Of a stretch of 64,000 nucleotides of DNA, positions 410 through 49,523 are shown piece by piece. The notes below the pieces were generated by a model, which saw nothing but the letters and a program-made list of their open reading frames with translations, had not been told where the DNA came from and did no database searches. Location: positions 32,001 through 96,000 of IMG/VR virus record IMGVR_UViG_3300018933_000001. One strand, given 5' to 3'. This stretch comes from a virus. A program made the translations under genes and the position numbers. Position 1 is the stretch's first letter, and every line of letters starts with the position of its first letter.

Positions 410-458
410 GCTCAGGTTAAAGGTAACTATCTTATCTACGTTCGATTCGTAGCTGAGC
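410..458 (+). ncRNA. Mini-tRNA-like element 1 (acceptor stem + T-arm)
   Basis: GCTCAG(410-415)/CTGAGC(453-458) stem; T-stem CTACG(436-440)/CGTAG(448-452) around TTCGATT; D-like hairpin GTTA-AAGG-TAAC. Confidence 0.75.
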
Positions 459-820: not shown

Positions 821-905
821 ACTTCTAAAAATTGGTTACTAAGTAACATTAGTCTAGGTTCAATTGCTCTCAGCAAAAGCTTCCGAGCTTATTCCTAGTA
901 GAGGT
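821..905 (+). ncRNA. Mini-tRNA-like element 2, T-loop interrupted by a 28-nt insertion
   Basis: ACTTCTA(821-827)/TAGAGGT(899-905) 7-bp stem; CTAGG(854-858)-TTCAATT-[866-893]-CCTAG(894-898). Removing 866-893 restores a canonical 7+5 tRNA top half. Confidence 0.75.
863..893. mobile_element. Very small dispersed insertion element, copy 1 (25 nt + ATT duplication)
   Basis: ATT-GCTCTCAGCAAAAGCTTCCGAGCTT-ATT, identical to 48423-48453; sits in the T-loop of element 2. Confidence 0.75.
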
Positions 906-946: not shown

Positions 947-1939
947 ATGACTCAAACAGTAACAGCACAAGAACTAATGTCAGAAAGTCCGTCAACAGTT
1001 AAGGACATTATCGACTTAATCCTAGCTGACACCGTAACTATAATAGTAAATACTGAGTTAGGCTACAAACTGCAATTCTCTAACTACTTCTCTCAATGCG
1101 GATTAGATGTAGTAGAACTCTACAAGACTGCTAAAGAAGATTTAGACTTATCTGCTGAATACCTAGCTTTACATCCTTTAGTAGAACAAGTCATTGACAA
1201 TATCGGTGCTGACTTATTCACTGATATGTTAGACACTGATGAAAATTCAGCTTACTCTGAGGTATTGAGATGTTTTGGTCATGGTGTATCTTTCTGGGAC
1301 AATCATGATTACAAAGACTTTGGATTTTTTGAGATGCCTAGATTGAAAACTACTCTAGAACATCCTTATGACATAGCAACTCAAATTCTAGATAAGATTG
1401 CAGAAGCTCATCCCGAGTTAGTAGGAGATGATGAAGAGGAGACGGAACCTGATAACGTAACTACCTACCAAATACCAACAATCTACTTACCTCTGATATT
1501 TAATGCCGATGCAACTGGGTTAGAAGATGAAGACATCGAGTTATTTGATGAGTTCATAGAAAGAGAGGGATTAGCAGACAATAAAGGTTACTGGAGTTAT
1601 CCAGATAATCAAGAGTCTTACTTCTCTCATGTTAACGATGTCACTAGATTAGGTAATGATGTGATTGACCTTCAATGGGCTAACACATCTACTCAAGACA
1701 ATGACTTTGATATTTGGTTATCTCAAAACTATATCCCTGCTGGTGAAGATGCTAGTAACGGTGGACAGTGGTACTTATCAGCTAATCCTAATGAGTTAAG
1801 GCACATATACTACTCAGAAGATAAAGTCCTAATGAGAAGTAGTTCAGGTCATCCAATAACACTGCATATTTCAGAGGAAAGAATCATTGTAGACACTGAG
1901 ACTGACTCTCGTGACTTCTACAATATTATTTACTCCTAA
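947..1939 (+). CDS. Acidic multi-domain hypothetical protein
   Basis: 330-aa ORF with a GGAG RBS; internal IPTIYLPLIFNADATGLEDED motif typical of small phage/plasmid early proteins. Confidence 0.75.
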   Translation: MTQTVTAQELMSESPSTVKDIIDLILADTVTIIVNTELGYKLQFSNYFSQCGLDVVELYKTAKEDLDLSAEYLALHPLVEQVIDNIGADLFTDMLDTDENSAYSEVLRCFGHGVSFWDNHDYKDFGFFEMPRLKTTLEHPYDIATQILDKIAEAHPELVGDDEEETEPDNVTTYQIPTIYLPLIFNADATGLEDEDIELFDEFIEREGLADNKGYWSYPDNQESYFSHVNDVTRLGNDVIDLQWANTSTQDNDFDIWLSQNYIPAGEDASNGGQWYLSANPNELRHIYYSEDKVLMRSSSGHPITLHISEERIIVDTETDSRDFYNIIYS

Positions 1940-44700: not shown

Positions 44701-47700
44701 ATGATTAAATTGACTCAACATATTGGTTTTGATGCTGCTACTGCCCTTTCCGTAATGTTTAGGACTTATTGCCGGACAAACGTTGTAGATGATGAAACAG
44801 GTGAGTTAGAACGAGAGTCCCCTCAACAAGCACTAGATAGGTCTATAAATGGATTAGATGTTTTTAATCTCTTAACTAAAGAACAATTAGAATTAATAAG
44901 GCAATACTGTTATAGAAATATAGTGTTTCCATCAGGTAGATGGTTATGGATTGGGGGAACTGATTGGATTGAGAAACAGAAGAATTACATTGGTGCTTAT
45001 AACTGTGCATCTGTACCAGTAGTAGATTGGGAGGCTTTTAGGTTTAATTTCCGCGCTCTATTAATGGGATGTGGAGTAGGAACGGTAGTTGAGTTAGATA
45101 AGATTTCTCAATTACCTAGTATTAAATATCCAATTAATTTAGTAGAAGTTACAGAGTTAGGTAGTAATTGGGTAGAAGGAAACCCAGAAAATGATAATAG
45201 CTGTTTTACTGCTTATAGGATAGACAAAGATACTTTAGGAATTATTTATACAGTAGGAGATAGTAAAGAAGGTTGGGTAGATGTAGCCACAGATATATTA
45301 GTATTTAGTTCTACTAATTTAAGTAATAGCGGGATTTGGGGAAATTTTCATTTACCTGAAAATTTTGATTATAAACAGATTAATTTAAGTATTGACCTCT
45401 CTTATGTAAGACCTAAAGGCAAGCAACTAAAAGGATTTGGTGGACTTTCTAATCCAGAAAAATTAGAAGAAGGTTTAAGAGCTGTAATAACTATTCTCAA
45501 TAAAGCAGTCGGGAAGCAGTTAAATAGTTTAGAAGTATGCAAGATACTAGGAATTGCTGGTGTTATAACAGTTAGTGGAAATGTGCGTAGAAGTGCAAGA
45601 ATAAATCAAGGCAGTCCAGAAGATGACCTTTTTACCACTTCTAAAGATAATCTTTGGGTGGAAATTGATGGGGATTGGGTAATAGACCCTGAACGAGATA
45701 TGCTTCGTATGAGCAACCACTCGAACGTTTATCACACTAAACCTACACTTGAAACTTTAGTAGCAGCAATTAGAAAGCAGTTTTATTCTGGTGAAGGTGC
45801 TATTCAATATGCTCCTGAAGCAGTTAGTAGAGCTAATGTAGACTTACTAGATACAGAAAATAAGAGGAAAAAATTCTTAAATCTTTATTGTGAAGATAGA
45901 AATTTAGCTAAAGATTACCTTCAGGAACTATCTAAGAATACCTTAGATGAGCGTGAATTAGAACATAGAATGAACCGACTAGGATTAAATCCTTGTGGTA
46001 GATAATTTTGCCTCAAGTAAAAAACCTTGCAAAAACGGGGAAAGCTGAGATGTTAATCCCGTGGTAATCAAAAGGGGTAATATGCTTTTGACACCGTACA
46101 GCGTAGGAAGTGAAACTAGGTTACAATAAAAAGAGTAATCGAGAATATAATCTTCCCAAGAGTGCAAGGGTACATAAATGACAAGTGCTTATTACGGATA
46201 CTCCGGTTTTTATAAAGAATCTTATCTAAGGTCGTGTCTTGAATATATTTACGCTAGATATCTAGACTACATGGAAATTAGTTGGGGTGTACGAACCTAA
46301 AACATTTACTCTTACTAATGGTGAACGATATAAACCTGACTTTTTATTAGAGACAGGGGAGTATACAGAAATTAAAGGCTCTTTCAACTATAAAAAGTGT
46401 CTGCCTAAAGTTAAGTGTTTTGAATCTGATTTTCAAGTAAAGGTAAATATAATTCAGGAACCAGACTTAAGAGTTCTTATTAGAAACACTCCATTAGTAT
46501 TTGAGCATCTAAAGAATGAGTGGAAAAAGGTAGCTAAAGTTAGAGGTATGAATATCTCTGGTACTAAAAATCCAATGTACGGAATCGTACAAACAGATAG
46601 TACCAAAGCTAAAATCTCAGCTAGAGCGAAAGAAAGGTTTAACGACCCGGTTTACAGAGAAAAGTGGAAAAATAGTCCTAAGCGAAAAGCATACCACGTT
46701 AATCGCACAGGTATTAAAACGGGAGAAGTAGTCCCTAGATATACCTTACAATGTGAGTTTTGTAGTTCTGGTTTCCTAGTTATCCAAGGTGCAGCTAAGA
46801 TAAGACGTTTCTGTTCAAAGAGATGTGCTATTCAAACTAATCGTGGTAAAACTATAACTACAGACTTAAAAATACGTGAATTAGCCCACAACTTCGCTTT
46901 AAATAATTCGGATAAACTTTTCACTACTAAATTAAACAAGTTAAAACCACTCTTTCAACCACTTTATGATGAAGTGTTAGCAGCTCACAATATTATGGAT
47001 ACTAGAACTATTGCTCTGATAACAATGGGAAAATCAGCTAGTAGAAAAGAGTTTCTGTACTATTTACGAGATTATGTACAAAAGGTACGCGGAACTATAG
47101 AGAATTCAGAATCTATAGAACTAGAGGATAAAAAGCCTTTAGGATAACAAAATGGAAATTATAGGCACTAACTTTCAATGTAACTTGGCAGATGTCCATG
47201 CTAATCTACTAGACCCCCTTGATTTTAAGCAGCAAGAAGAAGCATTTACAGCATCTACTTTAGCAGCTCTGCCTCTTTTAAAACATGAATTTGATATAGA
47301 ACAGTTTAAATATTCTAGGGATACTGACCCTATTATAGGTATTTGCATTACTGGACTCTTTGACTTTTTTGTACATCTGTTTGGTGAAGATTGGTTACTT
47401 TGGTGGAAAGAAGGTAGGAGTAAAACATACAAAAATGCTGACTATTTTCTATCTATTGAAAAAGCTTATTTAGAGCGATGGAGAAATATAGTTAAAGAAA
47501 CTGTTACTGAATTCTGCCAAAAACACAATATCAAAGTTCCTAACAGATATACAGCTATTGCTCCTTCAGGTACAAAGTCTCTTCTTACTGGCGCATCCCC
47601 GGGCTGGCATCCTCCGAAAGATACTCGATTCATCAGACGTGTTACATTCGCTAAAGATAATCCAGTAGCTCTAGCTTGTGTTGATTATGGTTATACTGTA

Positions 47701-48231
47701 GTTCCTTCTCAGTCATGTAAAGACGAATTTGGCAGCCTACTAAAGGATATTAATGACCCGAGAGTTACAGAGGTTTTAGTAGCAATTCCTGTTGAAGTTT
47801 CTTGGGTTAGTTTGGCGGATAAGGTAAACTTCCGTACTAAAGATATTTCTGCTTTAGCTCAACTAGATTTCTATATGCAGGTTCAAACCCACTGGACTGG
47901 ACATAACACTTCAGGTACTTTCGAGCTTTTTGAAAGAGAGATTGAGCCATTAGCAGAAGCTCTTCATAAAATTATTCAAAATGATGAAGGCTATGTAAGT
48001 GTAGCTATGATGCCTAAAGAAGAGGAAGGTGTAAATACTCATCCTCTTCTACCCTTTGAACCTATCAGTAAAGAACGCTATATCCAAGAATGTCAAGATG
48101 TCTTATCTCGAAGAACTAATGACAACTTCTTAGAGTTAGTAAATTTTCATACTACTATGATGGAGTTTACTTCTGAAGCTGGTTCTGCTGGATGTGACTC
48201 AGATAAATGTTTAATGCCGGAGAAAGGATGA
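44701..48231 (+). CDS. nrdJ: Class II (AdoCbl) ribonucleotide reductase; exons 44701-45999 and 47155-48231
   Basis: PSGRWLW, AYNC, LMGCGVG, GNVRRSA, MSNH; spliced NPCG|EII; CNL; TAIAPSGTKSLL; C-terminal CDSDKC. Confidence 0.92.
46000..47154 (+). mobile_element. Group I intron in nrdJ
   Basis: 5' exon ends in U within P1 GGT|AGA/TTTGCC (U-G pair); P3 CCTTGCA/TGCAAGG; P4 AAAACGGGG...AATCCCGTG; P7 GCGTA/TACGC; ends at omega-G 47154; splicing restores NPCGEI. Confidence 0.9.
46178..47147 (+). pseudogene. Intron-encoded PD-(D/E)XK endonuclease with NUMOD3 and Zn-finger, +1 frameshift at GGGG 46284-46287
   Basis: ATG 46178 frame (YLRSCLEYIYARYLD...ISW) joins YEPKTF...YKPDF...EIKG after removing one G; NPMYG...TKAKIS; CEFC...FCSKRC. 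Confidence 0.75.
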
Positions 48232-49523
48232 TGGAAATACTATTTTGGACAACTATTATTATCTCTACTGTCTGTGATTATATAATCTGGGGCTATTTAC
48301 ATCCTTGGATTTTTGTAATTATAACTTGTGTAATCTGGACAGCTTGGTACTTTATCTACTATATGGATATTGATGACTAAGCTTCATTTAGATTAGGAAA
48401 ACTTATCAAGAGGGGTTATTAGATTGCTCTCAGCAAAAGCTTCCGAGCTTATTAGCTCCTCTTATATTTAATTATGATTAGTAATGAATATGCGTTTTGG
48501 AAATGGTTTAAGAAAAATAAAAGTAGTTCTTTTAAACTGGAGCAGTTCGAGGAAGGCTATATTTGGTCTTCTTTAAATAGTAAAGGTGAATGGGAGGGGT
48601 CTGATATGTGGTTTGATACTCCTTACGATGCAATGATAGACTTCTTTTCTAACTTAATTTGTTGTGAAGTAGTTGAGAAGAACTCATGAAAAATAATTGG
48701 TACATTTCTATCCCAGGATTGTTAACAGGTTCCGTAATGTCTGTTTTACTAATAATACTTCCTTTTGAAATTGCAATATCTATTATCTTCTCATTTTTTG
48801 TTGGATTAGTTGTGGGTCATTATTTATTAAATCAGAACTAAATATATGTCATTACTAAAAGTTACGATTCATTTATTTTTAGTTGCGTTAATATTAACGG
48901 TTGTTATAGGAACATTCTCACCTATTCTTGCGGTAGCTTTTATAGTCTCTTACGTTATCGGTTTCAGTGTTGGGTTTATACTTGATAAGAACTAAAATTA
49001 TGGATTTCTTTGTTTGGGTTGGATTTTTCTTCTTTTTAGTATTTGGAATCTTGATGCTGATAGAGTTTATAGAAGGTAGCTGATTCCATATCAGCTATTG
49101 TAGTCCCTTTCATGCTTTGTCTAATTTATGCTGTTCTAGTGACAATTTTACTTAGATTCTATGATTAAAGTTTACTTATTACTAGGACTTATCTGTTTTG
49201 TGTATATCATAAGTTTTGCTTATTTGTTGTTTTTATTAATTGTATGAATGCAATAGATTTACTTACCTTAGGATTTACAGCTACTATCTATGCTGTGGCT
49301 TTAGGATTCCTGATTTCTTTATTGGTGAGTAAAGATGACTTATTTTGAATTAATAATCGTAGGAATTTTAGCAACAGCCATCTACTCCCTTCTTTTTGCT
49401 TTTACTTTAGATTGGATAGCTAAAACAGACTATAATATTTCACCTTTCCTAATAGCTGGATTTTTTGGAATAGTTATCTCTGTGATTTTAGTTTCTCTCA
49501 AAGTTCTCTTAGTGGTAATTTAG
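48228..49523 (+). other. Cluster of tiny hydrophobic (membrane) ORFs
   Basis: ORFs 48228-48380, 48686-48841, 48846-48995, 49000-49083, 49161-49247, 49244-49348, 49335-49523, each essentially 1-2 TM helices, closely spaced or overlapping. Confidence 0.6.
48423..48453. mobile_element. Very small dispersed insertion element, copy 2
   Basis: Identical 31 nt to 863-893; sits in the loop of hairpin AAGAGGGGTTA(48408-18)/TAGCTCCTCTT(48453-63). Confidence 0.75.

What the first reader, a model, noticed from the sequence alone, without database searches (positions are those of the whole stretch)
863..893. 25-nt mobile mini-element with ATT target duplication, inserted twice into hairpin loops 47.5 kb apart
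Seen: ATT-GCTCTCAGCAAAAGCTTCCGAGCTT-ATT occurs identically at 863-893 and 48423-48453. Removing 28 nt restores a perfect T-loop (CTAGG-TTCAATT-CCTAG) at the first site and a tidy hairpin (AAGAGGGGTTA-TTAGAT-TAGCTCCTCTT) at the second, so both empty sites can be reconstructed. The element folds on itself (GCTC/GAGC, AGC-AAAA-GCT). Established: Nostocales carry very small dispersed repeats (SDRs) of this size range with unclear mobilisation. Inference: a recently active non-coding element that targets ATT in stem-loops, possibly via RNA or ssDNA, caught in a phage. The insertion also supports the mini-tRNA being a real, pre-existing unit.
Basis: partly seen in the sequence, partly recalled or inferred. 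Interest (0 to 1): 0.75.

Follow-up and report, generated by a model that had tools for sequence, protein, structure and literature searches.

The report
Orphan 28-base hairpin insert, two copies
An uncultured 146-kb cyanophage carries the same 28-base, self-folding piece of DNA in the loops of two unrelated conserved hairpins; related phages have both hairpins without it, so these are real recent insertions, but no third copy exists in any collection searched, so a mobile element is likely and not proven.

Summary
A 31-nt string, ATT plus a 25-nt core plus ATT, is identical at window 863-893 and 48423-48453. It is the longest dispersed exact repeat in the 146.5-kb phage genome.

Relatives show both empty sites. 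Three related phages have site 1 as an intact tRNA-like T-arm, with an exact 28-column gap. Three have site 2 as the same terminator-like stem with a short loop. Both copies are therefore genuine insertions into hairpin loops, at the 3' edge of the loop, in the same orientation.

The insert is an orphan. The exact 25-mer gave no hit in IMG/VR, JGI metagenomes or 185,579 species genomes, and loosened patterns gave only chance hits. No match with up to 3 mismatches was found in 401 cyanobacterial genomes. The phage encodes no Y1 transposase and no reverse transcriptase.

It is not a demonstrable member of the Nostocaceae SDR families, and SDR5 targets HIP1, not ATT loops.

Best reading (about 0.4): a tiny non-autonomous insertion element moved in trans into single-stranded loops. 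Main rival (about 0.3): microhomology-mediated template switching that copied one captured fragment from one loop to the other. The scan had already noted the host mini-tRNA array on this genome.

The parts
863..893 (+). Copy 1 of the shared 31-nt string. The 25-nt core is 866-890. The inserted 28 nt is 866-893, or equally 863-890, because ATT stands on both sides.
   Evidence: An exact 28-column gap in three relatives in alignment A1.
48423..48453 (+). Copy 2 of the shared 31-nt string, with the 25-nt core at 48426-48450.
   Evidence: Gaps of 28 columns in L004, L024 and L010 in alignment A2.
821..905 (+). Host structure of copy 1, an anticodon-less tRNA-like unit. Acceptor-like stem 821-827/899-905, variable middle hairpin 835-847, T-stem 854-858/894-898, T-loop TTCAATT 859-865. 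The insert sits at the 3' edge of the T-loop.
   Evidence: Folds. Intact homologues in L003, L005 and L012/L013.
48408..48463 (+). Host structure of copy 2, a terminator-like hairpin AAGAGGGGTTA...TAGCTCCTCTT followed by ATATTT. The insert sits at the 3' edge of its loop.
   Evidence: Folds. The same stem with a short loop in L004, L024 and L010.
947..1939 (+). Gene downstream of site 1 (330 aa, DUF6926/PF21977), used to find relatives.
47152..48231 (+). C-terminal part of class II ribonucleotide reductase upstream of site 2, used to find relatives.
48474..48689 (+). 71-aa ORF directly downstream of site 2. It is weakly similar to the ORF downstream of the empty hairpin in L004, which supports synteny.

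Best explanation
The 25-nt hairpin-forming sequence GCTCTCAGCAAAAGCTTCCGAGCTT is a very small, non-coding, non-autonomous insertion element. It entered this cyanophage lineage recently and now sits at two places.

Shown:
- Each copy is a 28-nt gain relative to related phages.
- Each is bounded by ATT on both sides.
- Each lies at the 3' edge of the loop of a conserved hairpin, in the same orientation.

Inferred:
- Insertion happens when the hairpin is extruded as single-stranded DNA, for example at a replication fork, where the loop is the only unpaired target.
- An enzyme supplied in trans by the host or a co-infecting element cuts at or around ATT and joins the element. This either duplicates ATT or places an element that itself ends in ATT just after a target ATT.
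- Because the insert folds on itself, it merely extends the host hairpin. The tRNA-like unit and the terminator-like hairpin probably still work, so the copies persist as near-neutral passengers.
For: - Two identical copies, far beyond chance.
- Empty sites for both in relatives.
- ATT on both sides of both copies. ATT frequency is 0.0315 per position, so a given trinucleotide position is ATT at both sites by chance with probability of about 1e-3.
- Both copies sit at the same relative position of a hairpin loop. Only 2.0% of non-coding bases lie in such loops, so two random non-coding hits would both be in loops with p of about 4e-4.
- The insert is 52% G+C in a 32.8% G+C genome (p = 0.036), which hints at foreign origin.
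- The insert forms its own stem inside the host loop without disturbing the host stems.
- Six other loops ending in ATT are unoccupied, including mini-tRNA and true tRNA T-loops. This fits rare, recent events.
Against: - There are only two copies, both in one genome known from one assembly.
- The exact 25-mer is absent from IMG/VR, JGI metagenome contigs and 185,579 species genomes.
- Loosened patterns gave only chance hits in unrelated G+C-rich or coding contexts.
- No match with up to 3 mismatches was found in 401 cyanobacterial genomes of the sampled order.
- The terminal inverted repeat is only 4 nt (GCTC/GAGC).
- The phage has no Y1 (HUH) transposase and no reverse transcriptase.
- The preference for loops could reflect survival of harmless insertions rather than targeting. 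The same site-2 loop carries an unrelated expansion of about 26 nt in another phage (L011).
Confidence: 0.4

Rival explanations
1. Template switching without a dedicated element. A short foreign fragment was captured once in one hairpin loop by illegitimate recombination. During replication, a nascent strand stalled at the other hairpin, paired through ATT microhomology with the first site on a sister genome, copied 28 nt, and returned through the second ATT. The result looks like a target duplication, but no transposase is involved.
For: - There are exactly two copies and no family anywhere.
- ATT at both junctions is what microhomology-mediated copying leaves.
- Hairpins are natural stall and indel sites. 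An unrelated expansion of about 26 nt sits in the same site-2 loop of L011.
- No mobilising enzyme is encoded in the phage.
Against: - The first capture must itself have landed in a hairpin loop (about 2% of non-coding bases).
- It must also have ended up bracketed by ATT on both sides (about 3% per side).
- Both sites are insertions relative to relatives, so the original source is still missing.
- The two insertions sit at the same relative loop position, which a dedicated mechanism explains more simply.
Confidence: 0.3
2. A selected RNA module. The hairpin is a binding or processing site, for example for a phage or host RNA-binding protein or a ribonuclease. It was recruited twice because it changes processing or stability of the transcripts at these two gene junctions.
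For: - Both copies are in transcribed intergenic spacers, in the sense orientation, just upstream of genes.
- The insert forms a defined small hairpin.
Against: - It is absent from all relatives at both sites and elsewhere.
- There are no further copies at the many other junctions of the same operon, which carry plain T-arms.
- The fold is only modestly better than shuffles.
- No promoter-like site is created at either copy. The only terminator-like call at a copy (48445-48458) pairs the insert's GAGCT with the host stem's AGCTC and is weak, 5 pairs.
- This reading does not explain how the sequence was inserted.
Confidence: 0.1
3. Assembly or library artefact. The 28 nt is not in the phage DNA but was introduced during library construction or assembly.
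For: - The genome is known from one assembly only. The 100%-identical proteins occur on a single contig.
- Reads could not be inspected.
Against: - The insert is embedded in continuous sequence that is syntenic with relatives on both sides at two loci 47.5 kb apart.
- It sits precisely at hairpin loops with a 3-nt direct repeat.
- From my own recollection, it does not match common sequencing adapters.
- A 31-nt repeat cannot confuse an assembly whose 127-bp end overlap points to a k-mer of 127.
Confidence: 0.05
4. An RNA-level intervening sequence. The insert is an intron-like segment removed from the tRNA-like RNA and from the terminator hairpin after transcription, in the manner of archaeal T-loop introns.
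For: - It lies in a T-loop near position 59/60, a place where archaeal tRNA introns are known to occur (my own knowledge).
- It is in the sense orientation at both sites.
Against: - The fold shows no bulge-helix-bulge geometry.
- The phage is cyanobacterial in character. Its ribonucleotide reductase is closest to filamentous cyanobacteria, and bacteria lack the splicing endonuclease (established knowledge).
- It is far too short for a group I or group II intron.
- No Rfam family matched anywhere near it.
Confidence: 0.03

Closest known systems
Small dispersed repeats (SDR1-SDR8) of Nostocaceae (Elhai et al. 2008, Genome Res 18:1484; seen here only through PMC4390886 and PMC5861425)
   Same: The size class is the same (21-27 nt by my recollection of the abstract). 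Both are non-coding, insert precisely into short defined targets, have no known mobilising enzyme, and belong to the cyanobacterial world.
   Different: SDR5 inserts between the 3rd and 4th base of HIP1 (GCGATCGC), not at ATT in hairpin loops. SDRs are high-copy chromosomal repeats confined to Nostocaceae. This sequence has two copies, in a phage, and no match in 401 cyanobacterial genomes at up to 3 mismatches or in any species genome. The SDR consensus sequences themselves could not be read because the paper is not held.
REP/REPIN elements mobilised by RAYT (TnpA-REP, Y1 HUH) enzymes (PMC3116915, PMC3733652)
   Same: Both are short (20-40 nt) imperfect palindromes in intergenic DNA, thought to move as single-stranded hairpins through an enzyme acting in trans.
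   Different: REPs carry a conserved GTAG or CGTC head, have longer G+C-rich stems, and occur in tens to hundreds of copies next to a RAYT gene. Here there is no such head, only a 4+3-bp stem and two copies, and no Y1 enzyme in the genome.
IS1397/ISKpn1 (IS3 family), which insert into the loops of palindromic units (reference 41 in PMC3116915)
   Same: Both insert specifically into the loop of an intergenic hairpin. IS3-family elements make a duplication of 3-4 bp (my own knowledge).
   Different: Those are protein-coding insertion sequences of about 1.4 kb with TG...CA inverted ends. This is 25 nt with no coding capacity and no such ends.
Templated insertions from microhomology-mediated template switching or end joining
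   Same: A short patch of about 5-30 nt is copied from elsewhere and bounded by 2-4 nt of microhomology at both junctions.
   Different: Such patches are normally unique events copied from nearby sequence. Here both instances are insertions relative to relatives, and the ultimate source is not in the genome.

Membership tests
Nostocaceae SDR families (Elhai 2008) | Sequence belongs to one of the eight 21-27-nt consensus families present in many copies in Nostocaceae genomes | tested here: not met
   The exact 25-mer gave 0 hits and an internal-loop-free pattern gave no cyanobacterial hit in 185,579 species genomes. With up to 3 mismatches there were 0 hits in 401 genomes of the order containing a Nostocales-type centre. 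The published consensus sequences could not be read, so this test is indirect.
Nostocaceae SDR families (Elhai 2008) | Characteristic target (SDR5: inside HIP1, GCG|ATCGC) | tested here: not met
   Both targets are ATT at the 3' edge of hairpin loops, with no GCGATCGC at either site. The target rule is taken from PMC4390886.
Nostocaceae SDR families (Elhai 2008) | Presence/absence polymorphism between related genomes, i.e. precise insertion | tested here: met
   Empty sites in relatives for both copies.
REP/REPIN-RAYT | Conserved GTAG or CGTC tetranucleotide at one end of the palindrome | tested here: not met
   Neither tetranucleotide is present in or beside the 31-nt string. The rule is from PMC3733652.
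REP/REPIN-RAYT | Cognate Y1 transposase (PF01797) in the genome and high copy number | tested here: not met
   No PF01797 match in six frames of the phage genome. Copy number is 2. The host genome is unknown, so a host enzyme is not excluded.
MITE (miniature inverted-repeat transposable element) | Terminal inverted repeats matching a parent insertion sequence, plus a target-site duplication | tested here: inconclusive
   An ATT direct repeat is present at both copies. The inverted ends are only GCTC/GAGC (4 nt), and no parent element was found in any collection.
IS200/IS605-derived elements (PATEs) | Sub-terminal hairpins at both ends with guide tetranucleotides; insertion 3' of a fixed tetra- or pentanucleotide without duplication | tested here: not met
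   There is a single hairpin that starts directly at the left junction, which leaves no room for a left guide. No Y1 enzyme was found. Insertion just after (A/G)ATT with an element ending in TATT would fit the last criterion only.

The most novel reading that the evidence does not exclude
This is the first sighting of a class of 'nano-elements': roughly 25-nt hairpins that copy themselves into the single-stranded loops of other hairpins, including tRNA-type T-loops, with a 3-nt duplication. They would be active in a virus and mobilised by an enzyme not yet linked to transposition. That would make it the smallest element with both empty and filled sites documented outside the Nostocaceae SDRs, and a tractable entry to how such tiny repeats move.
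Probability: 0.25. Interest if true: 0.7.

Novelty: new variant of a known kind. Interest (0 to 1): 0.45.

Why it matters
How repeats of only 20-30 nt spread is unsolved. The cyanobacterial SDRs have had no mechanism since 2008. Here both the filled and the empty states of two insertions can be read base by base in a small genome. The targets are well-defined RNA/DNA hairpins, one of them a tRNA-type T-loop, and six equivalent targets are still empty. If more copies turn up, for example in the host, this gives a clean system to test loop-targeted insertion. If none do, it is a textbook-quality example of microhomology-mediated templated insertion in a phage. Either way it gives independent support that the anticodon-less tRNA-like units between the early genes are conserved structures.

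Tried and rejected
Searches that led nowhere:
- The exact 25-mer gave no hit in viral, metagenome or genome collections.
- The loop-free pattern and the two half-element patterns in IMG/VR gave either no hit or hits in one unrelated gene family and one coding region.
- The loop-free pattern in metagenomes gave 12 hits, all in unrelated contexts and mostly G+C-rich. The internal-loop-free pattern in genomes gave 5 hits, all in non-cyanobacterial genomes. Both counts are in the range expected by chance.
- A search with up to 3 mismatches found nothing in 401 cyanobacterial genomes or in the 30.8-kb relative record.
- A search for degenerate copies in the genome and the loci found none with 7 or fewer mismatches.
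- Flank-anchored patterns, meant to catch any insert at the homologous sites, found only empty relatives and true tRNAs.
- A scan of about 35 T-arm hairpins in relatives for expanded loops found no second clear hairpin insert like this one.

Tools that could not be used:
- The phage GenBank collection gave no DNA match for the region.
- The Elhai 2008 paper is not held.
- The records behind L004 and L005 are not held for whole-record searches.

Ideas rejected:
- A mobile promoter or terminator. No promoter-like site at either copy, and the only terminator-like call is a weak 5-pair one at 48445-48458.
- A CRISPR-repeat mimic. No arrays with this sequence exist in any genome.
- A remnant of a longer MITE. 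The two ends are not inverted repeats.
- Local duplication of neighbouring sequence. Only 7-nt similarities are present.

Full report
**The observation.** The string ATTGCTCTCAGCAAAAGCTTCCGAGCTTATT stands at window 863-893 and again at 48423-48453, both on the + strand. A search allowing up to 3 mismatches finds these two places only, and no shuffle of the window gives any match. The window is bases 32001-96000 of a 146,537-bp virus record with a 127-bp terminal overlap and 32.8% G+C. Across that genome the 31-mer is the longest dispersed exact repeat; the next longest dispersed one is 23 nt. No degenerate copy with 7 or fewer mismatches exists. Identity stops exactly at the two ATT triplets. 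The 25-nt core folds as GCTC/GAGC around AGC-AAAA-GCU at -7.2 kcal/mol, only modestly better than shuffles.

**Where the copies sit.** Both are intergenic. Copy 1 lies between a 98-aa ORF (514-810) and a 330-aa DUF6926 gene (947-1939). Copy 2 lies between a 57-aa ORF downstream of the ribonucleotide reductase gene and a 71-aa ORF (48474-48689).

Copy 1 interrupts a tRNA-like unit:
- a 7-bp acceptor-like stem at 821-827/899-905;
- a variable middle hairpin;
- a 5-bp T-stem at 854-858/894-898;
- a 7-nt loop TTCAATT.

Copy 2 interrupts the loop of an 11-bp terminator-like hairpin, AAGAGGGGTTA...TAGCTCCTCTT. In both cases the insert follows an ATT at the 3' edge of the loop and is followed by a second ATT and then the descending strand of the stem. 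In both predicted folds the host stems are kept and the insert forms its own small stem inside the loop.

**Empty sites in relatives.** Relatives were found with the flanking proteins.

Site 1:
- L003 (IMG/VR, 30.8 kb; 63% identity in the downstream protein) reads CTAGGTTCGATTCCTAGTAGAGG.
- L005 (JGI, 80.9 kb; 76% identity) reads CTAGGTTCGATCCCTAGTAGAGG.
- L012/L013 carry the same unit with entirely different but still paired stems (GCTCAG/CTGAGC, CTTAG/CTAAG) and the loop TTCGATT.
- The alignment shows one clean 28-column gap in all three.

Site 2:
- L004, a 146.5-kb relative (69% identity in the reductase), has AAGAGGGGTTTTCTATAAGCTCCTCTTATATT at the syntenic place.
- L024 (150 kb) has AGAGGGGTTTCTTATAAGCTCCTCT.
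- L010 has a covarying version, GAGGGAGGTTC...GAGCTTCCCTT.
- All three have short loops, with gaps of 28 columns in the alignment.

So both copies are real gains of 28 nt in pre-existing conserved hairpins. At site 1 the ancestral loop already ended in ATT (L003) or ATC (L005), so one ATT is old and one came with the insertion. At site 2 the relatives' loops have diverged, so the junction cannot be checked to the base.

**Is the loop position meaningful?** With a simple ORF mask, 7.9% of the genome is non-coding. Only 2.0% of non-coding bases, or 0.64% of all bases, lie in loops of hairpins with at least 5 pairs. Two random non-coding insertions would both fall in such loops with p of about 4e-4. 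ATT occurs at 3.15% of positions, so the same triplet on the far side of both copies is also unlikely by chance. Either the mechanism prefers loops and ATT, or only such insertions survive. Six other loops ending in ATT are unoccupied, among them two mini-tRNA T-loops and two true tRNA T-loops. Insertion is therefore rare or recent.

**Search for a family.**
- The exact 25-mer is absent from IMG/VR, from JGI metagenome contigs and from one genome of each of 185,579 species. Records of this genome itself may be hidden in those scans.
- A pattern with a free loop, a pattern with free internal loops, and two half-element patterns gave only chance hits, in coding regions or G+C-rich contigs of unrelated organisms.
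- Through a Nostocales-type genome reached by the reductase homologue, 401 genomes of its order were searched with up to 3 mismatches. None had a match.
- Flank-anchored patterns, which would catch any insert at the homologous hairpins, found only empty relatives.
- A scan of about 35 T-arm hairpins in relatives showed plain 7-nt loops.
- The phage encodes no Y1 transposase and no reverse transcriptase.

The insert is therefore an orphan: two copies in one genome from one assembly. The proteins that are 100% identical occur on a single contig.

**What it most likely is.** I commit, at about 0.4, to a tiny non-autonomous insertion element that is moved in trans and lands at ATT in single-stranded hairpin loops. 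The two insertion events, their identical ends and their identical geometry are shown. The single-stranded DNA stage, the enzyme and the duplication-versus-target distinction are inferred. The insert's 52% G+C against 32.8% (p = 0.036) hints at a foreign source.

The main rival, at about 0.3, needs no element. One captured fragment was copied from one loop into the other by template switching at ATT microhomology during replication. It explains the lack of any family and of any enzyme, and it fits the unrelated expansion of about 26 nt in the same site-2 loop of L011. However, it requires the first capture also to have landed in a loop and between two ATTs.

The remaining readings are less likely:
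- A selected RNA module (0.1) is disfavoured by absence from all relatives and from the neighbouring junctions.
- An artefact (0.05) is disfavoured by the precise, syntenic, duplicated junctions, but reads could not be checked.
- An RNA intron (0.03) is disfavoured by the fold and the bacterial setting.

**Comparison with known systems.** The closest described things are the small dispersed repeats of Nostocaceae. What I could read about them says that SDR5 inserts between the third and fourth base of HIP1 and that no SDR occurs outside Nostocaceae (PMC4390886, PMC5861425). The original paper is not held. The present sequence fails the indirect sequence test and the target test, so it should not be filed as an SDR, although it may work in a similar way. 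It also lacks:
- the GTAG/CGTC head, the copy number and the RAYT gene of REP elements (PMC3733652, PMC3116915);
- the two guided hairpins of IS200/IS605 derivatives;
- the inverted ends of a MITE.

Loop-specific insertion with a 3-4-bp duplication is known for IS1397 in palindromic units, but that is a full insertion sequence.

**Context and verdict.** The reductase is closest to those of filamentous cyanobacteria, and a neighbouring gene in a relative hits a cyanophage family, so the phage is probably a cyanophage. Earlier notes of this scan on the same genome had already listed the array of anticodon-less tRNA-like units. My folds and the relatives' covarying stems agree with that, and the clean insertion into one T-loop is independent support that the unit is older than the insert.

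The link to SDRs is not supported, and the mobile-element reading is plausible but rests on two copies. Interest is moderate.

Noticed in passing
window 410-458, 821-905, 1949-2005, 2282-2334, 2712-2749; also L003, L005, L012, L080, L081, L082: Anticodon-less tRNA-like units (acceptor-like stem stacked on a T-arm, loops TTCGATT or TTCGACT) lie between consecutive early genes. They recur in every related phage locus fetched, with covarying stems. This looks like a conserved punctuation or processing signal.
   Followed up: partly
window 44701-48231: The class II ribonucleotide reductase gene is in two parts (434 aa and 359 aa), separated by a 286-aa ORF (46287-47147) with a weak, sub-threshold NUMOD3 hit. 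This suggests a homing-endonuclease-type insertion. In relative L010 the N-terminal part instead carries a LAGLIDADG domain, and L004 has a 260-nt gap.
   Followed up: partly
L011:2025-2075: In a related phage the same terminator-like hairpin as at site 2 carries a different, A+T-rich expansion of about 26 nt in its loop, with an extra TTATCT/AGATAA stem. This loop has therefore changed length more than once.
   Followed up: partly
genome 140412-140504 (outside the window): A 30-nt exact direct repeat with copies 63 nt apart (TTGCTTTACTCTTATCAGTAAAGATATTAG). It is the second-longest repeat in the genome.
   Followed up: no
L081:9714-9765: A T-arm-like half (ATAGGTTCAAT) is followed directly by a complete T-arm-like hairpin (CTAGGG-TTTAACT-CCCTAG) and a distant closing CCTAT. 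This could be a nested or duplicated tRNA-like unit, or chance.
   Followed up: no
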